A model generated the notes under the pieces. It was not told where the DNA came from. It ran no database searches and saw only the letters and a program-made list of their open reading frames with translations. 44,899 bases of DNA from Escherichia phage SSL-2009a, in the sequence record NC_012223.2. One strand, given 5' to 3'. The stretch's first letter is position 1. Each line of letters begins with the position of its first letter. Positions 22,313 through 29,593 of this stretch are shown piece by piece. The translations under genes were made by a program, and so were the position numbers.

Positions 22313-22345
22313 GTATTACACCGCTCGACCAGGATTGCAACCAAT
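22313..22345 (-). promoter_or_regulatory. candidate sigma70-type promoter for the lipoprotein gene (extended -35 ATTGGTTGCAAT, -10 TAATAC)
   Basis: On the minus strand: ATTGG-TTGCAA, 16 nt spacer, TAATAC; TTGCAA at 22335-22340, -10 at 22313-22318. Confidence 0.45.
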
Positions 22346-22361
22346 TTATGAGGATTCAGCT

Positions 22362-23978
22362 ATGGCAGCGGGTACACTATCCGTAACGAATAACAGCAAG
22401 GCGGTTGTCGGGGTAGGCACGACGTTTACCGCGTTTAAAGCTGGCGACTTCTTAACGCTGGTGGTAGGACAAGTCCCCTACACCGTGGCAATCGCGTCCA
22501 TTGAAAGCGCAACCGCGCTCACGCTGGTGTTACCGTTCGACGGACCCACGGCCACCGGCCTTGCCTGGGATGGCGTTGCGCGCGATACCATGTCACTGGC
22601 GACGATGGGCGTAACAGTCCAGGCACAGAAAGCATTGCGCTTGATGATTGCGGATGAAAACAACTGGCGTGCAATCTTCGGCGACGCTGAAGAGATCACC
22701 GTTACGCTGCCCAACGGGCAAGTTATGCAGGGTATGTCATGGGGCTACCTGTCGCAATTGATGAAGCAGATCGACCCCGTTGAAATGCGCAACCTACAAC
22801 AACAAGCCGCCGCGTCTGAAGCAGCAGCGCAAGGATTTCGCAATGAGGCCGAAGGCTTCAAGAACGATGCCAATACCATCAAGACGCAGACCAACCAAAT
22901 CAAGGCCGATACGCAGGCGGTCCACGACGCCACCAACACCATCAAGACGCAGACGAATCAGATTAAGGCCGATACGCAAGCCATCAAGGACCAGACGAAC
23001 CAGATCAAGACGGATACCGGCATTATTCGGGACCAAGCCAATACGGCGAAGACTGACGCGCAAGCCGCCAGAGATGCCGCGAAAGGGTATCGGGATGAAG
23101 CCGAAGACTTCAAAAACGCGGTCAACCCTACGCAATTCATGAAGACGTCTCAGAACCTGGCAGACGTAGCAAATCAATCAGCGGCACGCTCTAATCTTGG
23201 TCTTGGGTCGGTAGCTACGGAGAACACCGTTCCGATCGAGAAAGGAGGAACCGCCGCGACAACGGCAGCGGCGGCACGCTCTAATTTCGGGTTGGGCGAA
23301 AACAATAACGTAAAACTTGGTACGTTGCGCCTAAACGGTGGTGAATCGCTAGTCTTCAATGATGTCGAAAGAAACGGCTTAGCACTATCAAACGTCTCAT
23401 ATGGGATAGATAGTTGGGTAGGCTTCACCATGCACAAATGGTACGCCGACTGGACCCGCGCAGGAATTGTGCGTGCGGGGGACACCCACCTGTCAGACTA
23501 CCGCGTCCACGTGTGGAAAGATGGTATGACTGAATCGCTATTCCGCTTCCTACCGGACGGCAGGCTTATTAGTGGTAACAGCGGCAACCCGTCGGTTAAC
23601 GAGTTCCAGAAAGCGGCGCTATCGGACCGCGACCTTAAAAAAGAAATCAAATACACGGACGGCGAGGAAAGCTACAACCGCGTTCGCCAGTGGCTTCCGG
23701 CGATGTTCAAGTATAAGGAGTCGGACGTACAGCGATACGGCCTTATCGCGCAGGATCTGGCAAGGATTGACCCGGAATACGTGCATTTGCTGCCGGGTTA
23801 CGCCATTTATGAGGACGTCAAGGGGGTCGACGAGGAAGGGAATGAGGTTGTAGTCGACCGCAAGGAGATCGGGTATACCGACGATGTGCTGTCTTTGGAT
23901 AGTAACGTGCTGTTGATGGACCTGTGTGCCGCCTTCGTCCACCTGTTGCATAAAGTGGAGAAGCTGGAAGGTAAATAA
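22362..23978 (+). CDS. tail fiber protein with internal 21-residue repeats and C-terminal chaperone-like domain
   Basis: 538 aa from ATG 22362 (SD GAGGA); tandem TIKTQTNQIKADTQA repeats; C-terminal region (DRDLKKEIKYTDGEESY...GLIAQDLARIDPEYV) resembles the intramolecular chaperone of S74-type fibers (by recollection). Confidence 0.7.
   Translation: MAAGTLSVTNNSKAVVGVGTTFTAFKAGDFLTLVVGQVPYTVAIASIESATALTLVLPFDGPTATGLAWDGVARDTMSLATMGVTVQAQKALRLMIADENNWRAIFGDAEEITVTLPNGQVMQGMSWGYLSQLMKQIDPVEMRNLQQQAAASEAAAQGFRNEAEGFKNDANTIKTQTNQIKADTQAVHDATNTIKTQTNQIKADTQAIKDQTNQIKTDTGIIRDQANTAKTDAQAARDAAKGYRDEAEDFKNAVNPTQFMKTSQNLADVANQSAARSNLGLGSVATENTVPIEKGGTAATTAAAARSNFGLGENNNVKLGTLRLNGGESLVFNDVERNGLALSNVSYGIDSWVGFTMHKWYADWTRAGIVRAGDTHLSDYRVHVWKDGMTESLFRFLPDGRLISGNSGNPSVNEFQKAALSDRDLKKEIKYTDGEESYNRVRQWLPAMFKYKESDVQRYGLIAQDLARIDPEYVHLLPGYAIYEDVKGVDEEGNEVVVDRKEIGYTDDVLSLDSNVLLMDLCAAFVHLLHKVEKLEGK
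22836..23120 (+). repeat. tandem 63-bp coding repeats within the tail fiber gene
   Basis: accatcaagacgcagac...aaggccgatacgca repeated at 22875 and 22938 with a third degenerate copy; flanked by repeated FKN(D/A) segments. Confidence 0.6.
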
Positions 23979-23984
23979 GGAGAA

Positions 23985-24008
23985 GGGGCCGTGCGGCCCC
24001 TTTTTTAG
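23985..24008 (+). terminator. rho-independent terminator after tail fiber gene
   Basis: GGGGCC-gtgc-GGCCCC followed by TTTTTT; marks the convergent junction with the minus-strand operon. Confidence 0.7.
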
Positions 24009-24580
24009 TTTGAGTTTTCCCAGTCCATTTTGCGCCGCACCAGCGGGCTTTCGTAGTATTCTTTACCGTCCACTTCCACTAAAGGCCAATCGTTAACAAT
24101 CACGTATGGCTCCGCGACATCTTCAATCACGCCGCGCGCGCTATGTTGTCCGAACGATACGCCCACCAGGATAACACCGGCAACGCGACGGGTAAGGTAT
24201 TCGCGAGCGCAACGTGCCTCAACCAGTCCGCGACGGATGCCGCTGGTAGCTTTGACTTCGTAGGTCCAGACGGCATCAATCATATGTTCGCGGAAGTCGG
24301 GACCGGATTTTACCTTGCGCTTGCCAACCATGATAATATCGCCGCGGTCGATAGTGTTAGCGCTAAACAGGCCGGTACGCATTAGCAAACCTTGCGGGAT
24401 ACAGCTACGCCCGCCCGCCTGCCCTTCGAGGTACATGCCTGCAAACATTTCGCCCAGCACACCGACGAGTCTGCTTTGCTTGCACGCGTCAGACTTGTAT
24501 CGCCACTGTTCAAACTCGATGCTTGCAATCATCGCCGCCAGGTGGAATTGTTTACCGGTTATTTCATATTCGCCGTACAT
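24005..24580 (-). CDS. hypothetical protein, possible PD-(D/E)xK-type nuclease
   Basis: 191 aa, SD GAGGGA; D...EVK arrangement (GDIIMVG ... TYEVKA) weakly suggestive of a restriction-endonuclease-like fold; last gene of the leftward operon. Confidence 0.45.
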   Translation of the reverse strand: MYGEYEITGKQFHLAAMIASIEFEQWRYKSDACKQSRLVGVLGEMFAGMYLEGQAGGRSCIPQGLLMRTGLFSANTIDRGDIIMVGKRKVKSGPDFREHMIDAVWTYEVKATSGIRRGLVEARCAREYLTRRVAGVILVGVSFGQHSARGVIEDVAEPYVIVNDWPLVEVDGKEYYESPLVRRKMDWENSN

Positions 24581-24621: not shown

Positions 24622-25173
24622 TTATTTAAGTGCGCCAGTCACCAGTGTTTTTTCCATGTTACGGAAATCTTCCTGCGTCATGCAGATTTTCGATCCGTCT
24701 TCGCCGGTGAGCACGACCATAGGCTGGACGTCCTGGGCTACAACTCCAAAATTGGCGGCTGTAACCGTTTTACCGGGGGTAAATGCGCCGCCTGTTTTGA
24801 CGGGCCAACCTTTGAGGCTGTCGAATTGTGCTGCCGTTGTATCGATCTGAATCTCGTCATGTACGGTCATGTAAGACTCGCCCAGCAGGGCGGCATACGC
24901 CACCAGATCCACGATGTTATCTTCCTGGTGCTTACGGTGCTGGCGCACCAGCTTCAGGCAGATCAGGAAGGTCCAGGCTTCTTGCTCTGTAAGGTCGCGA
25001 CCGGTAAGCGCGTTAAACACGGCTGCGATTTGTTTAGCGCTGCGTTCTTCTTTCGCGTTGTCATAGCCGTTTTCTTTCCCGCGCTGTTCCATAGTGGTGG
25101 CGGCGTTTTTGCAGTATTCGTATGCTTTCACAGTATTACCCTTTTTATTGAGGGGCTGTATTGCCCCCGACAC
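24622..25173 (-). CDS. hypothetical protein (start uncertain: GTG 25173 or ATG 25092)
   Basis: 183 aa ORF; upstream palindrome and TATAGT lie immediately 5' of the GTG; no motif recognised. Confidence 0.45.
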   Translation of the reverse strand: MSGAIQPLNKKGNTVKAYEYCKNAATTMEQRGKENGYDNAKEERSAKQIAAVFNALTGRDLTEQEAWTFLICLKLVRQHRKHQEDNIVDLVAYAALLGESYMTVHDEIQIDTTAAQFDSLKGWPVKTGGAFTPGKTVTAANFGVVAQDVQPMVVLTGEDGSKICMTQEDFRNMEKTLVTGALK

Positions 25174-25184
25174 GTTTACTATAG

Positions 25185-25206
25185 TGCAACCAACCTATTG
25201 GTTGCA
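25185..25206. promoter_or_regulatory. 22-bp perfect palindrome TGCAACCAA-ccta-TTGGTTGCA (operator-like)
   Basis: Seen directly; overlaps the stop codon of the HAD gene and lies just 5' of gene 24622-25173; TATAGT follows on the minus strand. Confidence 0.55.
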
Positions 25207-25665
25207 AGTGAATTTCGCAACATTTATCGCGTAAATTTTAGGGACCAAATCACCACACGCCCGACGAATTGCCGCGATGTTTTTCTCGCAATCTTCAATG
25301 ATTACCAGTTCCGACACGTCCGCATAGCAGACCATTTTGAACACGGCGCACGCCTTAAACTCTGGCGGCGGGGTGTCGTCCAGCATGTGGCGCATGAATA
25401 ACCGGCCTACCGGGAAGACCTCCAGTTGTTTGGCGGTGGTGTCCCAACATTCTCGCTGCCGGTTGGTCAGATACGCGATCTCGAAACCTTGCTCTTTATA
25501 CATGCGCAGTAGCGGCAGCATATCCATGTTCAGGTCTTCGCGGACGTGCGCCTTGTGCCACTTTGCCCAAAAGGTGGATTTCGTTTTTATCCCCGGCACC
25601 AGGTCGGCGCGCGCATCACTTGAACCGTTAATAACGCCATCCAAATCACAAATCAGTAATTTCAT
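25195..25665 (-). CDS. HAD-superfamily phosphatase (putative nucleotidase)
   Basis: 156 aa; N-terminal LICDLDGV (HAD motif I DxDG); later Lys and acidic motifs compatible with the HAD fold. Confidence 0.6.
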   Translation of the reverse strand: MKLLICDLDGVINGSSDARADLVPGIKTKSTFWAKWHKAHVREDLNMDMLPLLRMYKEQGFEIAYLTNRQRECWDTTAKQLEVFPVGRLFMRHMLDDTPPPEFKACAVFKMVCYADVSELVIIEDCEKNIAAIRRACGDLVPKIYAINVAKFTCNQ

Positions 25666-25886
25666 TTTAAGCTCTCAATAAGGGTGTATCGGGCGCTGCG
25701 CGCGGTGTAAGAGTTGCACACGAAATGACAACGTCGGGTAATGACAAGCCACCCGGTAAGGTCCATACCCAGGAGGTGTTCAGGCCGTGACACGCGACGC
25801 ACACGATCGCGGCGCGGGTCAATGTTATAGTCTTTTTGCATTTGGTCTACGACCGCGTGGTCGCGGTCAACGATTAAGATATTCAT
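25662..25886 (-). CDS. hypothetical small protein
   Basis: 74 aa from ATG 25886 (ORF extends to GTG 25895); overlaps the 3' end of the Dam-like gene by about 20 nt and the HAD start (ATGA). Confidence 0.35.
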   Translation of the reverse strand: MNILIVDRDHAVVDQMQKDYNIDPRRDRVRRVSRPEHLLGMDLTGWLVITRRCHFVCNSYTARSARYTLIESLK

Positions 25887-26352
25887 GTAGCTCACTCTCG
25901 CTCATTATTTCAATCTGTGCGCTGCCGGTGGGCGGCGCTTCGTCAAAGATTATCAATTGCTGGCACTTGTTATTGCTCGGACCGACTTCACCGGTGACTG
26001 CATGTATGAATCGGATCCGCCAGTCCAGAAGAATTATCAGGTTTGCAGTCTTCCGGGCCAGCTTTGCCCACTTCGTCGACGTGTCCTGATTCAGCAGCAT
26101 GACGGTCCGGCGTCCGTGCGCTGCGCACTTAACCCACGGCAGCGGATCGGAATACGGCGGGTTGCACCACTTCCACCCTTTCAACTCTGACCAGTCCGCA
26201 TCGAGCGCGCTGTGCTCTGCCGTGAAGTAACGCGGTAGCAGGTGGTTGGCATCGCTCGCCGCCATGTCATAACGGAATCGGTACTTCCGACGAAGCGGTT
26301 TAAATAAAGCTGGCGGAGTGCGCCAGCCATCTTTTTGCTCACTCTTCTGCAT
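25867..26352 (-). CDS. DNA N6-adenine methyltransferase (phage Dam-like)
   Basis: 161 aa; N-terminal DGWRTPP and catalytic NPPY motif (WCNPPYSD). Confidence 0.75.
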   Translation of the reverse strand: MQKSEQKDGWRTPPALFKPLRRKYRFRYDMAASDANHLLPRYFTAEHSALDADWSELKGWKWCNPPYSDPLPWVKCAAHGRRTVMLLNQDTSTKWAKLARKTANLIILLDWRIRFIHAVTGEVGPSNNKCQQLIIFDEAPPTGSAQIEIMSESELHEYLNR

Positions 26353-26797
26353 GGTCTGGATCTATCGCGTACAGGGCAATTTTCTTATTACTGTTTAGAA
26401 CGCGTTGCACGCGCTTTGATTCCTCGGCGCCGAGCGGTCGGCAGTCGGAGTAGTAAGACCCGTTCCCCCGCCACGCAACCAGCACCAGGTCTTTCCGGTC
26501 AATCTTAGACTGGCGGCCCTTCGGACGCACGTACTCCTCGGCCCGTTTGCAATGCTCACGCAGCCCGTCGGCAGTGATGCGGTTTAGTGCAACGCTGGTG
26601 GTGTATCCGGTGCGCTGCATAATCCCCATCAATTCGAATAGCAGTTCGAAACGCTCCTCTAGCTCCTGGCGCACTTTCTTCTCCCCTTCATATAGCGCCT
26701 GGTTGGTGTCCGCCAACGCGTTCGCACGTTCGGCCTGTTCTCGAGCTTCGAGGCATTGCGCTGCCCAGTAATTTTTCTCTTCTTGTAAAATTTTCAT
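26339..26797 (-). CDS. hypothetical protein with N-terminal coiled coil
   Basis: 152 aa, SD GGAG 9 nt upstream; overlaps Dam start; no catalytic motif recognised. Confidence 0.5.
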   Translation of the reverse strand: MKILQEEKNYWAAQCLEAREQAERANALADTNQALYEGEKKVRQELEERFELLFELMGIMQRTGYTTSVALNRITADGLREHCKRAEEYVRPKGRQSKIDRKDLVLVAWRGNGSYYSDCRPLGAEESKRVQRVLNSNKKIALYAIDPDHAEE

Positions 26798-27040
26798 TTA
26801 TTTAATCTCCGTTGTGCGGATTTCATTGCGTGGAATAAGTTTGCCGCCAATCTCCACCCAGCAGACACCGTAGCGCCATTGGGTATTACGTCCCGTTTGC
26901 TCGGCGTACACGGTCTTGCATTCGTAGCGTTCCGTGTAGTAAATAGCCGTCGAAGGTATGCCAATACAACCGGCAATCATGAGGGTGAGTAGCACCCAAA
27001 ATCGAAGGTCGCCGTCGTAGTCGAAAAATAATGATTTCAT
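26798..27040 (-). CDS. small membrane protein
   Basis: 80 aa, SD GGAGA; one predicted TM helix (FWVLLTLMIAGCIGIPSTAIYY). Confidence 0.45.
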   Translation of the reverse strand: MKSLFFDYDGDLRFWVLLTLMIAGCIGIPSTAIYYTERYECKTVYAEQTGRNTQWRYGVCWVEIGGKLIPRNEIRTTEIK

Positions 27041-27059
27041 CTCACTGTCTCCGGGTATT

Positions 27060-27085
27060 AAAAAGGGCGTCCAAACCGGACACCC
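27060..27085 (-). terminator. intrinsic terminator hairpin on minus strand (between HNH-like gene and membrane protein gene)
   Basis: Minus-strand RNA GGGUGUCC-gguuu-GGACGCCC followed by UUUUU; located immediately downstream of a candidate promoter -10. Confidence 0.45.
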
Positions 27086-27087
27086 TC

Positions 27088-27121
27088 AATATAATGCAAC
27101 CAATATGATTATGCAACCAAT
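27088..27121 (-). promoter_or_regulatory. candidate promoter with two direct ATTGGTTGCAT sites (-35 TTGCAT, 17 nt, -10 TATATT)
   Basis: atgcaaccaat at 27094-27104 and 27111-27121 (+ strand); on the minus strand the first copy supplies TTGCAT, the second fills the spacer, TATATT at 27093-27088. Confidence 0.5.
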
Positions 27122-27444
27122 TTACGCATAAAAGTTAGGGTCGCGCGCAACGTCCACCAAATAGAGATTGCTGATCCGGTTGCCGTAATGGCCTGGCGTG
27201 CGCTGACGGCACACAACGGCAAAGCTGGGGGGATTGTATTGCCAGTCTCAATAATCCACGCCACGCGTGCGCCAGACAGCGTCTTGCCGTTGCATTCGAT
27301 ACGAGTACCGCCATCGGCAGTATTGAGGTTGCCAATCTTGCAGCCGGTGGACTTTAGGCGGATAACGCCTGTTTTGCTGTCGTAGGAAAAAAGCTGATTG
27401 GTCATTGCCACTGAAAAGTCGATGGCGTCGAATGCAGTATTCAT
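27109..27444 (-). CDS. HNH/AP2-like homing-endonuclease-related protein (putative)
   Basis: 111 aa, SD GAGGA; FSYDSKTGVIRLK...IECNGKTLSGARVAW resembles the N-terminal module of free-standing phage HNH endonucleases, but no clear HNH His was identified. Confidence 0.4.
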   Translation of the reverse strand: MNTAFDAIDFSVAMTNQLFSYDSKTGVIRLKSTGCKIGNLNTADGGTRIECNGKTLSGARVAWIIETGNTIPPALPLCAVSARQAITATGSAISIWWTLRATLTFMRKLVA

Positions 27445-28136
27445 TTTAAATTTTCCTCGTTAACCGCTATCGCGAAGCCGCGCGGGGTGAGCGACCTGAT
27501 TAATTTGGTGCGGGCAGATTTGCCTCCGAGGCGACTATACTGCTTCGAGTACCCTTTTTCAACGAATACCGGCTTTTTCTCTGGTATACGGAAGCCGTTG
27601 CCGGTCCATAAGCAGGTCAGCTTCGGATATGAATCGCGGGCGTTGATGTATTCCGGGAAGAGCGGGTGCACGTCATCCTCCGGCAAATAGCCGCCATACT
27701 CCCACGGGTCAAACGAGTGGTCCGGCTTACGCCATTGAGTGGAGAGCACGCTGCGCGGATTCTCAATCATATATGGCACTTCAAAGAAATCACCCAGGTA
27801 AGCGGCGATCTTCGCGGTGCGCACCGCCTTAAGCTGGAAGGCAGGGTCGCGGGCGCGTTTGCGCGGGAAAGCTGGCGCACCGCTCACCGCCAGATCCGTA
27901 CACGGCGGGAATGCGTATATGATATCCGGCGCGCCGAAATCACCATTCATCGCGCGGTCAACGAAGTCCAGGTCGATAAACTCATTACGATATCGAATGC
28001 CGCAACCATAGATCCGGTAATCAAGGTACAACCCGTGATCGGCTTCGGAGTAGTTGAAGCAATAACACTTATGCCCCATCTCGGCAGCACGCTCAATCAT
28101 CAAGCCGCTGCCGTCAAATAATGACCATATAATCAT
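27441..28136 (-). CDS. C5-cytosine DNA methyltransferase-like protein (short, no obvious target-recognition domain)
   Basis: 231 aa; motif I-like LFDGSG, PC motif AFPPCTDLAVSG, ENV-like MIENP; shorter than typical Dcm-class enzymes. Confidence 0.55.
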   Translation of the reverse strand: MIIWSLFDGSGLMIERAAEMGHKCYCFNYSEADHGLYLDYRIYGCGIRYRNEFIDLDFVDRAMNGDFGAPDIIYAFPPCTDLAVSGAPAFPRKRARDPAFQLKAVRTAKIAAYLGDFFEVPYMIENPRSVLSTQWRKPDHSFDPWEYGGYLPEDDVHPLFPEYINARDSYPKLTCLWTGNGFRIPEKKPVFVEKGYSKQYSRLGGKSARTKLIRSLTPRGFAIAVNEENLK

Positions 28137-29593
28137 TTGCGCGCCTTTTTAGCTTTCATGTATTCCATTAGATCGTCCTGGATATCGCGCTTACTGTCGC
28201 GACGCTCGGCGACCAGTTCGTCCAGTGTGCCGCGCGCCTGGATAATGTAGACGAATACTGGACGAGGGTGTCCGGCTTGCATCTGGCGAACTGGCCCGAT
28301 ACGCTCCACGATCTGCGCAAAGTGCTCATAGTTCCAGGTGTCTGAGAAGATAGCAAGGTGGTGTCCGCCATCCTGCAAGTTAAGGCCGTGACCCGCCGAA
28401 GCCGGGTGTGCGAACATGATGGGGATCTCACCCCTGTTCCACGCTTCCATATCCTTATTCCCTTGCTTTCCCTTACCCATCGCGACGCCGTGCGGGAATT
28501 TCTTCTTAAGACGTGCCAAGTCATGCTTGTACTGGTATGCGACGAGCAACGGCGCGCCGTTCAACTCCTCCACGATACTTTCCAGCGCGTCCAGTTTAGC
28601 GTCGTGAATTTTCACCCATTCGTCGGTGCGCTCGCCGTCTTCGTCGACTTTATACACGGCCCCGGAAGCAAGCTGAAGGCACTTAATAGTCTTCGACGCG
28701 GCGTTAGCCGCCTCCACTGTCCCGCTTTCCAGTTCGGCAAATAGCTCCGCTTCGAACTGGTCATAAATCTTGCGGGCTTTCTTCGGCAGGTCCACAACAA
28801 CCGGCGTATAGATCGGCTTGTCACACCCGAAGTATTCAGCCGCGTCAACTGTTAGCGACACGTCGGACAGGCGTTGTTGGATTTCTTTCTCGGAGTTCTT
28901 AAGCGGGGCGTGCTGCATAGTGAAGCTGCCAGGCTTAACAGGCTTGCTAATAAACCAGCGATCCGTGAATGCCTTATAACTACTGCCGAGGCGTTCGCCC
29001 CCGTCGACAAACCACGTCTGGCCCCATAGGTCTTTTAGTCCGTTTGGTGCGGGTGTGCCGGTCAGGTTAATCCAGCGCTTGACGTGCTTATGTGCGATCG
29101 CCGCCAGGGCGCGGGCGCGCTTACTTCCCTGCTTGCTTCTATATCCTTTCAGCTTAGTGGATTCATCGGCAACAACGACCGTAAAGGGCCACTCGTCGCC
29201 GCAATACTCAACAAGCCACTCAACCACATCATAGTTAACACAAACCACGTTAGCGTCGCTCTCAAGCGCAGCGATGCGGTCCTTCTCTGACCCGGTGCCG
29301 TCTACTACCAGCAGGGCGGGGAAGCGCCATTTTTCTTGTTCCGGGGGCCATGTGCCAGATGCAACGCGCAGCGGGGCCAGCACCAGTACGCGGTCCTCCT
29401 GGTTGGACAGGATGCCGGTCTGGAACATTTTATTCAGCGCCCACATGGTCGCGCCTGTTTTACCCGACCCCATTGTCGCCCAAATATTGCAGCGCTTATG
29501 CTTGAGGATGAACGCGGTTATCAACTTCTGATATTCGCGACGTCGGAAACGTGCCATATCTTTATTCCGCCTTTTTCCAGACTTCGGTTTCAC
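28133..29593 (-). CDS. SNF2-family DNA helicase
   Basis: 486 aa; Walker A TMGSGKTG, motif II VVADESTKLK, SNF2 motif III LTGTPAPN, C-terminal helicase motifs; GTG start with SD AAGGA. Confidence 0.8.
   Translation of the reverse strand: MKPKSGKRRNKDMARFRRREYQKLITAFILKHKRCNIWATMGSGKTGATMWALNKMFQTGILSNQEDRVLVLAPLRVASGTWPPEQEKWRFPALLVVDGTGSEKDRIAALESDANVVCVNYDVVEWLVEYCGDEWPFTVVVADESTKLKGYRSKQGSKRARALAAIAHKHVKRWINLTGTPAPNGLKDLWGQTWFVDGGERLGSSYKAFTDRWFISKPVKPGSFTMQHAPLKNSEKEIQQRLSDVSLTVDAAEYFGCDKPIYTPVVVDLPKKARKIYDQFEAELFAELESGTVEAANAASKTIKCLQLASGAVYKVDEDGERTDEWVKIHDAKLDALESIVEELNGAPLLVAYQYKHDLARLKKKFPHGVAMGKGKQGNKDMEAWNRGEIPIMFAHPASAGHGLNLQDGGHHLAIFSDTWNYEHFAQIVERIGPVRQMQAGHPRPVFVYIIQARGTLDELVAERRDSKRDIQDDLMEYMKAKKARK

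What the first reader, a model, noticed from the sequence alone, without database searches (positions are those of the whole stretch)
25195..28136. DNA-modification cluster: short Dcm-like methyltransferase, Dam-like methyltransferase, HAD phosphatase and HNH-like gene
Within 3 kb the leftward operon encodes a C5-methyltransferase-like protein of only 231 aa with FxGxG, PC and ENP motifs but no obvious target-recognition domain, a phage-type N6-adenine methyltransferase (NPPY), a HAD-family phosphatase, an HNH/AP2-like protein lacking a clear catalytic His, and three proteins of unknown function. The short Dcm-like protein is the unusual member. It could be an orphan anti-restriction methylase, or a methylase-fold enzyme with a different substrate. 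The HAD enzyme could dephosphorylate nucleotides for a modification pathway.
Basis: partly seen in the sequence, partly recalled or inferred. Interest (0 to 1): 0.5.

Follow-up and report, generated by a model that had tools for sequence, protein, structure and literature searches.

The report
Known phage mini cytosine methyltransferase operon
This is the conserved DNA-metabolism operon of a common E. coli phage (Dhillonvirus); its oddly short "Dcm-like" gene belongs to a very large phage family of minimal cytosine methyltransferases, one member of which has already been shown to make 5-methylcytosine, so the finding is real but ordinary.

Summary
The window is a Dhillonvirus (HK578-like coliphage), 90-94% identical to about 150 deposited genomes that already annotate this gene order.

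The 231-aa "short Dcm" matches no Pfam, NCBIfam, PADLOC or PDB-sequence model. It does match PHROG 757 (E 5e-81). Its family has about 2,000 cluster representatives and occurs in 1,510 phage records, nearly all 210-260 aa, so shortness is the family norm.

The Dam-like gene is a normal Pfam Dam member. The HAD protein resembles the T4 Pnkp 3'-phosphatase domain and is not co-distributed with the methylase. The HNH-like gene is a degenerate remnant and is frameshifted in this window.

There is no evidence for a joint modification pathway. One question stays open: how a near TRD-less enzyme picks its target. A hypervariable loop (residues 186-203) differs from that of the studied homologue.

The parts
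28133..29593 (-). SNF2/DEAD-type DNA helicase, immediately upstream in the same operon (context)
   Evidence: Pfam SNF2-rel_dom E 2.8e-11; PHROG 62 DNA helicase E 4.6e-157. Its stop overlaps the methylase start as ATGA.
27441..28136 (-). Minimal phage DNA C5-cytosine methyltransferase (231 aa; PHROG 757; DNMT3-like core with a vestigial TRD)
27532..27585 (-). Codons for residues 186-203: hypervariable, length-variable loop between the motif VIII-like strand and the LGGKS segment; candidate minimal target-recognition element
   Evidence: Highest entropy in the C-terminal half. The aligned segment W177-A208 that contains this loop runs from about 25 to 44 residues across 76 homologues. The window has EKGYSKQYSR where KarlJaspers has DKDNPGWAKT. 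The role is inferred.
27109..27444 (-). Degenerate HNH-like homing-endonuclease remnant (111 aa) with a 1-nt deletion near 27225/27226 that puts the last ~27 residues out of frame
   Evidence: PHROG 99 HNH E 1e-9 over residues 9-72 only; no Pfam hit. Every tblastn match in relatives that covers the full length comes as two pieces, and the others stop at residue 84. The DNA alignment shows the missing G after a C6 run. The relatives' tail '...VCRQRTPGHYGNRISNLYLV' keeps NRISNL but has no D-H.
26798..27040 (-). 80-aa protein of unknown function with a hydrophobic segment (FWVLLTLMIAGCIGIPSTAIYY)
   Evidence: PHROG 18961, unknown function, E 5e-53; no Pfam or NCBIfam hit; sequence.
26339..26797 (-). 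152-aa Dhillonvirus-restricted protein of unknown function (the PHROG label 'DNA ligase' is unsupported)
   Evidence: PHROG 10530 E 7e-98. No Pfam, NCBIfam or PDB hit. Found in 154 phage records, all Dhillonvirus-like.
25867..26352 (-). Phage-type N6-adenine DNA methyltransferase (161 aa, NPPY)
   Evidence: Pfam Dam PF05869 E 5.1e-36, 124 bits against a cut-off of 28. TIGR01712 scores 87 bits, below its 97-bit equivalog cut-off. PADLOC orphan MTase E 2e-11.
25662..25895 (-). 77-aa protein of unknown function
   Evidence: PHROG 10685, unknown function, E 6e-47; no other hit.
25195..25665 (-). Stand-alone HAD phosphatase (156 aa) resembling the T4 Pnkp 3'-phosphatase domain and class B/C acid phosphatases
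24622..25173 (-). DUF6378-domain protein (183 aa), downstream member of the operon
   Evidence: Pfam DUF6378 E 1e-9; PHROG 9871 E 3e-107.
24005..24580 (-). 191-aa protein of unknown function, last gene of the leftward operon
   Evidence: PHROG 10558 E 4e-119, unknown function.
23979..24006 (.). Bidirectional terminator-like hairpin between the convergent tail-fibre gene and the leftward operon
   Evidence: 12-pair stem (6 G-C pairs) followed by a T-run on the + strand; an 8-pair version on the - strand.

Best explanation
The region is the distal part of the conserved leftward replication and DNA-metabolism operon of a Dhillonvirus. It carries two unlinked orphan DNA methyltransferases.

The 231-aa protein is a member of the widespread phage 'mini-Dcm' family. 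Shown: it has a seven-stranded SAM-methyltransferase core closest to the DNMT3A/B catalytic domain. It keeps motif I (FDGSG), the motif IV nucleophile (PPC, C79) and the motif VI glutamate (ENP, E125).

Inferred: K172-x-T174 plus W177-x-G-N stands in for motif VIII (RxR...WGN in DNMT3A). R214-S-L-T-P stands in for motif X (GRSWSVP in DNMT3A). Motif IX and the TRD are reduced to about 33 residues.

Inferred from the homologue studied in the KarlJaspers-like phage K42: after replication it flips out a target cytosine, attacks C6 with C79 and transfers the methyl group of SAM to C5. The resulting 5mC on phage DNA blunts restriction by the host. The same activity on retron msDNA is what retron Ec86/Eco1 senses.

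Target choice is probably made by the family-specific conserved insert (residues 131-185) together with the hypervariable loop 186-203, possibly as a DNMT3-like dimer. This step is speculative.

The 161-aa protein is an ordinary phage Dam-family m6A methyltransferase. The HAD protein is most likely a stand-alone Pnkp-type 3'-phosphatase or nucleotidase acting in nucleic-acid end healing or nucleotide turnover, not in base modification. The HNH-like ORF is a decayed homing-endonuclease remnant.
For: - Identity of the phage and conservation of gene order.
- Family size and uniform length: 2,682 hits; 1,975 cluster representatives, almost all 210-260 aa; 1,510 phage records across Dhillonvirus, Drexlerviridae, Vequintavirinae, Krischvirus, Jersey-like and other phages.
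- Invariant residues C79, E125 and P127.
- Motifs I, IV and VI align in register with M.HaeIII, DNMT3A and E. coli Dcm.
- 54% full-length identity to KarlJaspers Dcm, with C82=C79, E128=E125 and K175=K172.
- Experimental 5mC formation and retron Ec86 triggering by the K42 Dcm (K42 genome 95% identical to KarlJaspers): bioRxiv 10.1101/2023.08.16.553469. Later papers restate it.
- CCWGG (147 observed, 159 expected) and GATC (171 observed, 202 expected) are not avoided, while many 6-bp palindromes are absent.
- HAD evidence.
Against: - No activity or methylome data exist for this phage or any Dhillonvirus in what I could search.
- The protein fails Pfam PF00145. Only 8 of 76 relatives reach even E<1.
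- The canonical motif VIII arginines and motif IX are absent. K176 of the K42 enzyme is Leu173 here.
- The putative specificity loop differs from the tested homologue.
- The CCWGG specificity in the K42 work was assumed from host Dcm and supported only by msDNA mutants.
- The motif X assignment rests on short-motif resemblance. hhalign aligned only the N-terminal third with DNMT3A, and a global pairwise alignment was unreliable.
Confidence: 0.8

Rival explanations
1. The cluster is a coordinated DNA hypermodification pathway. The methylase-fold enzyme, the HAD phosphatase and the unknown ORFs would together build a non-canonical base.
For: - The genes are co-transcribed and translationally coupled.
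- Three ORFs have no known function.
- Phage C5-MTase relatives can start hypermodification, as CmoX does (PMC12783734).
Against: - The components are not co-distributed. The methylase family is in 1,510 phage records. The HAD protein is in about 190 and the 152-aa protein in 154, essentially Dhillonvirus only.
- No TET/5mYOX, CmoA, amide ligase, glycosyltransferase or dNMP kinase signature appears among the 10 operon proteins scanned.
- The HAD fold is closest to Pnkp end-healing phosphatases.
- BASEL phenotyping describes Dhillonvirus as restriction-sensitive compared with the hypermodified Queuovirinae (PMC8594841).
Confidence: 0.04
2. The short enzyme uses a cofactor other than SAM, for example host-made carboxy-SAM to give 5-carboxymethylcytosine. 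Alternatively it acts mainly on a non-genomic substrate such as RNA or ssDNA.
For: - CmoX selectivity depends on an Arg replacing the motif X Asn, and this family has a near-invariant R214 in the motif X-like segment.
- From general knowledge, E. coli makes Cx-SAM through CmoA, so no phage cmoA would be needed.
Against: - The K42 homologue raised 5mC, measured by LC-MS against a standard.
- DNMT3A also carries Arg at this position (GRSWSVP, R891) and uses SAM (sequence verified, numbering; cofactor use from established knowledge).
- The family has FPPC, not the SPPC used to define CmoX.
- No CmoA or CmoY neighbours are present.
Confidence: 0.05
3. The 231-aa protein is catalytically dead or only a DNA-binding or decoy protein. 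It would be a methylase fossil kept for another role.
For: - It lacks a TRD, motif IX and the canonical RxR.
- It is not recognised by Pfam or NCBIfam.
Against: - The catalytic Cys and Glu are invariant across about 2,000 clusters.
- Purifying conservation is strong: mean column identity is 59% in close relatives and 35% in distant ones.
- The homologue is active, and that activity needs C82/E128/K175/K176.
Confidence: 0.05

Closest known systems
Phage K42 / KarlJaspers (Bas06, Drexlerviridae) Dcm, 236 aa, the trigger of retron Ec86/Eco1
   Same: The two align end to end at 54% identity and share a PHROG family and length class. The catalytic Cys, the Glu and the first Lys of the mutated set are conserved. 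Both genes lie in the replication module near a helicase gene. Both have a DNMT3A-like predicted fold.
   Different: The loop at residues 186-203 differs: GYSKQ type here, DNPGW type in KarlJaspers. K176 is Leu here. The host phage genus differs. No experiments have been done on the Dhillonvirus protein.
DNMT3A/DNMT3B catalytic domain (mammalian de novo C5-MTases)
   Different: Sequence identity is only about 14%. The phage protein is about 55 residues shorter and lacks motif IX and the DNMT3 TRD loop. It has K-x-T instead of R-x-R and carries a family-specific conserved insert at residues 131-185. Its oligomeric state is unknown.
E. coli Dcm / EcoRII-type CCWGG methyltransferase (472 aa)
   Same: The chemistry is the same in name, and motifs I, IV and VI line up. 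CCWGG has been proposed as the target of the phage homologue.
   Different: There is essentially no sequence similarity (hhalign probability 1.3%, E 0.039). The phage protein is half the length, has no TRD and has no vsr partner. 'Dcm-like' describes function, not homology.
CmoX, the phage DNA cytosine C5-carboxymethyltransferase (PDB 8yf3)
   Different: CmoX has an SPPC motif and R350, and usually has CmoA/CmoY neighbours. None of these accompany the gene here. The homologue of the window protein makes 5mC.
T4 Pnkp 3'-phosphatase domain / class B-C acid phosphatases (for the 156-aa HAD protein)
   Different: There is no kinase domain. Identity is only about 20%, and the substrate is untested. 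The plant VSP acid phosphatase scores equally well.

Membership tests
DNA (cytosine-5) methyltransferases (Pfam PF00145 superfamily) | Motif I FxGxG (SAM binding) | tested here: met
   F7-D-G9-S-G11 is invariant in 27 close homologues. It is relaxed to SLFDxTG in 76 distant ones. It aligns with motif I of M.HaeIII, DNMT3A and Dcm.
DNA (cytosine-5) methyltransferases (Pfam PF00145 superfamily) | Motif IV Pro-Cys catalytic nucleophile | tested here: met
   P77-P78-C79. C79 is invariant in 76 sequences and aligns to the PC of HaeIII, DNMT3A and Dcm.
DNA (cytosine-5) methyltransferases (Pfam PF00145 superfamily) | Motif VI ENV glutamate | tested here: met
   E125-N126-P127. E125 and P127 are invariant. 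It aligns with the ENV of Dcm.
DNA (cytosine-5) methyltransferases (Pfam PF00145 superfamily) | Motif VIII QxRxR arginines | tested here: not met
   K172-L-T174 sits on the equivalent strand, where DNMT3A has R790-A-R792. The K42 authors treat K175/K176 as the substrate-binding equivalents.
DNA (cytosine-5) methyltransferases (Pfam PF00145 superfamily) | Target-recognition domain plus motif IX between motifs VIII and X | tested here: not met
   Only about 33 residues lie between K172-N180 and R214, against 92 in DNMT3A. That stretch is the most variable part of the C-terminal half.
DNA (cytosine-5) methyltransferases (Pfam PF00145 superfamily) | Motif X (GN...) closing the SAM pocket | tested here: inconclusive
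   R214-S-L-T-P-R-G followed by a C-terminal helix resembles DNMT3A G890-R-S-W-S-V-P. No profile alignment reached this region.
DNA (cytosine-5) methyltransferases (Pfam PF00145 superfamily) | Score above the Pfam gathering threshold | tested here: not met
   No hit even at E<=1. 8 of 76 relatives match weakly, best E 0.0039.
DNA (cytosine-5) methyltransferases (Pfam PF00145 superfamily) | C5-MTase three-dimensional fold | tested here: met
DNA (cytosine-5) methyltransferases (Pfam PF00145 superfamily) | Formation of 5-methylcytosine in DNA | not testable with these tools
   Shown only for the homologue studied in phage K42, a KarlJaspers-like phage; the window protein is 54% identical to the KarlJaspers (Bas06) Dcm.
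Phage minimal Dcm family (PHROG 757; K42/KarlJaspers Dcm) | End-to-end homology and a length of about 210-260 aa | tested here: met
   PHROG 757 E 4.9e-81 over residues 1-229. BLASTP residues 2-231 against 5-236, 54% identity, E 4e-86. Family lengths.
Phage minimal Dcm family (PHROG 757; K42/KarlJaspers Dcm) | Residues needed for K42 Dcm activity (C82, E128, K175, K176) | tested here: inconclusive
   C79, E125 and K172 are conserved. K176 corresponds to L173 here. The four were mutated together, so the need for K176 alone is unknown.
E. coli Dcm / EcoRII-type methyltransferase | Detectable sequence homology including the CCWGG-reading TRD; vsr partner | tested here: not met
   hhalign probability 1.3%, E 0.039, N-terminal motifs only. 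No Vsr-like protein was found among the operon proteins scanned.
CmoX carboxymethyltransferases | SPPC motif, Arg in place of the motif X Asn, and cmoA/cmoY neighbours | tested here: not met
   The motif is FPPC, not SPPC. The Arg equivalence is uncertain. No CmoA or ligase was found among the neighbours.
Phage Dam family (Pfam PF05869), for the 161-aa protein | Pfam gathering score and the (D/N)PPY motif | tested here: met
   124.3 bits against a cut-off of 28.1. CNPPYS is in the sequence. It scores below the TIGR01712 equivalog cut-off.
HAD phosphatases, for the 156-aa protein | Four HAD motifs and a Rossmannoid HAD fold | tested here: met
HNH endonucleases, for the 111-aa protein | Catalytic His of the H-N-H motif | tested here: not met
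   No Pfam HNH hit. The PHROG 99 match covers only the N-terminal DNA-binding-like part. The relatives' tail has CRQ where D-H is expected. The tail in this window is frameshifted.

The most novel reading that the evidence does not exclude
The near TRD-less, DNMT3-like phage methyltransferase may read DNA through its conserved 131-185 insert and the hypervariable 186-203 loop, perhaps as a dimer. The Dhillonvirus loop type (GYSKQ) would then give a target motif different from the CCWGG assumed for the K42 enzyme, possibly a very short or relaxed motif. That would make this the smallest natural sequence-reading C5-MTase scaffold, with specificity set by a swappable loop of roughly 10-30 residues.
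Probability: 0.25. Interest if true: 0.45.

Novelty: already known. Interest (0 to 1): 0.2.

Why it matters
For genome annotation it matters little. The operon is a standard feature of about 150 sequenced Dhillonviruses, and the short gene is already labelled a cytosine methyltransferase.

Two points are of moderate value:
- 'Dcm-like' is a functional nickname. The family is not homologous in any useful sense to E. coli Dcm, is invisible to Pfam, NCBIfam and PADLOC, and is structurally closest to DNMT3.
- The family is one of the most widespread phage methylases (1,510 of 50,697 phage records) and is a known retron Ec86/Eco1 trigger. Its sequence specificity has never been measured directly, and its target-recognition element is reduced to a short hypervariable loop.

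Determining the motifs of a few loop variants would be cheap. It could yield compact programmable 5mC writers and would show which phages can trip retron Eco1.

Tried and rejected
- Pfam, NCBIfam and PADLOC scans, and PDB sequence searches with the single sequence and two profiles, gave nothing significant for the 231-aa protein. The best results were sub-threshold M.HaeIII matches and generic Rossmann hits.
- Longer family members that might carry informative fusions (P0242, P0256, P0263 and others) had no Pfam domains.
- Genomic context of two divergent homologues was uninformative.
- The afdb50 fold library was unavailable.
- hhalign of the family profile against single DNMT3A and Dcm sequences aligned only the N-terminal motifs. 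A global BLOSUM62 alignment to DNMT3A mis-placed ENV and could not settle motif X.
- The promoter scan showed no enrichment over shuffles (7 found, 6.8 expected), so I assign no promoters.
- Literature searches on Dhillonvirus methylation, truncated phage C5-MTases and Webervirus methylases found no methylome data for this genus.
- I considered and rejected a carboxymethyltransferase reading and a hypermodification pathway (see rivals).
- I considered that the PHROG labels 'DNA ligase', 'polynucleotide kinase' and 'phosphofructokinase' might be informative. Only the Pnkp-phosphatase resemblance survived structural testing.


Full report
**What the window is.** The window is a Dhillonvirus, an HK578-like E. 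coli siphophage. The 5.6 kb around the finding matches 160 phage records. In 150 of them the match covers at least 80% of the query, at 80-95% nucleotide identity. The best matches are NJ01, YD-2008.s, HH3 and Oekolampad/Bas18. The annotated Oekolampad genome shows the same gene order: DNA polymerase I, small ORFs, DNA helicase, 'Dcm-like C5 cytosine methyltransferase', 'putative homing endonuclease', two hypotheticals, 'Dam-like N6-adenine methyltransferase', a hypothetical, 'putative phosphatase', then two more hypotheticals.

**Observation.** Most junctions overlap or abut. For example, the methylase ATG at 28136 overlaps the helicase TGA. The operon ends at a strong bidirectional hairpin terminator at 23979-24006, facing the convergent tail-fibre gene. 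The unit is larger than stated and is the phage's general replication and DNA-metabolism operon.

**The short 'Dcm-like' protein (27441-28136): sequence searches.**
- Standard libraries do not recognise it. There is no Pfam, NCBIfam or PADLOC hit and no PDB sequence hit.
- PHROG 757 ('DNA methyltransferase') matches at E 4.9e-81.
- The family is very large and uniform in length. I found 2,682 hits in the 5.8-billion-protein set and 1,975 50%-cluster representatives at E<1e-3, almost all 210-260 aa.
- tblastn finds it in 1,510 phage records. These span Dhillonvirus, Kagunavirus, Jersey-like phages, Krischvirus (JSE), Vequintavirinae, Klebsiella Webervirus, phi92-like phages, phage 7-11, Skarpretter and others. 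Shortness is therefore the norm for the family and not an anomaly of this gene.

**The short protein: conservation and motifs.**
- In 76 diverse homologues the invariant residues are C79 (in FPPC), E125 and P127 (in ENP), P144, Y170, W177 and P185. Near-invariant residues include K93, N126, D168, K172, T174, R214, S215, P218 and G220.
- Profile searches of the PDB give only sub-threshold matches to M.HaeIII, but motifs I and IV align in register.
- hhalign to the DNMT3A catalytic domain aligns motifs I-IV (E 2e-4). I verified my DNMT3A sequence as identical to PDB 5yx2_A.
- hhalign to E. coli Dcm aligns motifs I, IV and VI at negligible significance (probability 1.3%). 'Dcm-like' is thus a functional label and not a statement of homology.

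**The short protein: structure.**
- The AlphaFold2 model built on the 76-sequence alignment is confident (pLDDT 94.9, pTM 0.91). It has the seven-strand order expected of a class I methyltransferase.
- Foldseek likewise ranks the DNMT3A/B/C catalytic domains first.
- The sequence shares DNMT3-type motif variants: SLFDG, PC-x-DL, and W-(x)-G-N after the motif VIII strand. The C-terminal R-S-L-T-P resembles DNMT3A G-R-S-W-S-V-P (by inspection). I treat the motif X equivalence as an inference.
- Between the motif VIII-like and motif X-like segments there are about 33 residues, against 92 in DNMT3A. Motif IX and a conventional TRD are therefore absent.
- Within that stretch, residues 186-203 are the most variable part of the C-terminal half. 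The aligned segment W177-A208 that contains them runs from about 25 to 44 residues. Residues 131-185 form a strongly conserved insert specific to the family.

**Prior knowledge that settles the main question.**
- A bioRxiv paper on retron Ec86 (10.1101/2023.08.16.553469) isolated escape mutants of phage K42. K42 is 95% identical in genome to KarlJaspers/Bas06.
- All four escapers disrupted a 711-bp 'dcm' gene.
- Expressing this Dcm was toxic only when Ec86 was present. LC-MS showed a rise in 5mC on msDNA, which a C82A/E128A/K175A/K176A mutant abolished.
- The authors superposed their AlphaFold model on DNMT3A.
- Later papers restate this as established, and the published title is cited in 27 library papers.
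- The KarlJaspers gene (bas06_0055, 711 bp) is 54% identical to the window protein over residues 2-231 (E 4e-86). C82 maps to C79, E128 to E125, K175 to K172 and K176 to L173.
- The window protein is therefore a full-length member of an experimentally supported 5mC methyltransferase family.

**What remains open.**
- The CCWGG specificity of the K42 enzyme was assumed from host Dcm. It was supported only by mutating the msDNA CCTGG site.
- The window protein's variable loop (EKGYSKQYSR) differs from that of KarlJaspers (DKDNPGWAKT). Its target motif therefore cannot be transferred from the homologue.
- In the window, CCWGG (147 observed, 159 Markov-expected) and GATC (171 observed, 202 expected) are not avoided. 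Many 6-bp palindromes are absent or nearly so: AAGCTT 0 against 15.8 expected, CAGCTG 0 against 12.4, GGGCCC 0 against 12.0, and GCCGGC 1 against 18.7. This fits protection of CCWGG and GATC by methylation, from host or phage, but does not prove it.

**The carboxymethyl rival.** CmoX uses Cx-SAM through an Arg that replaces the motif X Asn (PMC12783734). This family has a near-invariant R214. However, DNMT3A also has Arg at this position and uses SAM. The K42 homologue yields 5mC. The SPPC motif and the CmoA/CmoY neighbours are absent. I rate this rival at about 5%.

**Other genes.**
- The 161-aa protein is a clear Pfam Dam member (E 5e-36) with NPPY. According to the literature read here, phage Dam enzymes are also known retron triggers.
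- The 156-aa HAD protein has all four HAD motifs. It has only 16 homologues in the large database and occurs in about 190 phage records, Dhillonvirus plus some N4-like phages.
- The 111-aa HNH-like ORF matches only the N-terminal part of PHROG 99. Relatives encode a 107-aa protein ending '...VCRQRTPGHYGNRISNLYLVDVARDPNFYA', with NRISNL but no D-H.
- The window has lost one G after a C6 run at about 27225/27226, which puts the last ~27 codons out of frame. This may be a sequencing error or a real lesion.
- The 77-, 80- and 152-aa proteins remain of unknown function. The PHROG 'DNA ligase' label on the 152-aa protein has no support.

**Verdict.** The interpretation as a special modification cluster with an anomalous methylase is only partly right. 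The short gene is a typical, already annotated and partly characterised phage minimal C5-MTase. The cluster is the ordinary Dhillonvirus DNA-metabolism operon. Novelty: already known. Interest is about 0.2. The residual value lies in the unmeasured specificity and the minimal DNMT3-like architecture of a very abundant phage methylase family.

Noticed in passing
window 27200-27250 (about 27225/27226): There is a 1-nt deletion (a missing G after a C6 run) in the HNH-like gene relative to Oekolampad and the other Dhillonviruses. It shifts the last ~27 codons out of frame. It could be a homopolymer sequencing error or a real pseudogenising lesion.
   Followed up: yes
window, whole 44.9 kb: Many 6-bp palindromes are strongly avoided. 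AAGCTT, CAGCTG, GGGCCC, CCATGG and TGGCCA are absent, and GCCGGC, CGGCCG and CACGTG occur once each, against 6-19 expected. CCWGG and GATC are near expectation. This suggests that site avoidance is the phage's main anti-restriction strategy.
   Followed up: partly
window 23979-24006: A strong bidirectional terminator-like hairpin (12-bp stem) lies between the convergent lateral tail-fibre gene and the leftward operon.
   Followed up: partly
window 24622-25173 and 26339-26797: The PHROG functional labels 'phosphofructokinase' (phrog_474/1167; Pfam says DUF6378) and 'DNA ligase' (phrog_10530) are carried into some GenBank records. No Pfam, NCBIfam or PDB evidence supports them, so they are probably propagated mis-annotations.
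   Followed up: partly
window 22335-23978 (+): The lateral tail-fibre protein contains internal peptide repeats of the type TNQIKADTQA / NTIKTQTNQIK.
   Followed up: no
phage database hits: Records named 'Acinetobacter phage NJ01', 'Campylobacter phage C2/D#/A119' and 'Sodalis phage SO-1' carry coliphage-type genes. NJ01 is 93.7% identical to this window across 5.6 kb. The host labels look doubtful.
   Followed up: no
window 27532-27585 (residues 186-203 of the methylase): The family splits into loop types, for example GYSxQ against DNPGW, at its only hypervariable C-terminal segment. This segment is a candidate specificity determinant.
   Followed up: partly
literature (PMC12640716): A Dhillonvirus ('phage98') protein of unknown function is reported as a trigger of Retron-Eco7. 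I could not determine which gene it is, and it might lie in this operon.
   Followed up: no
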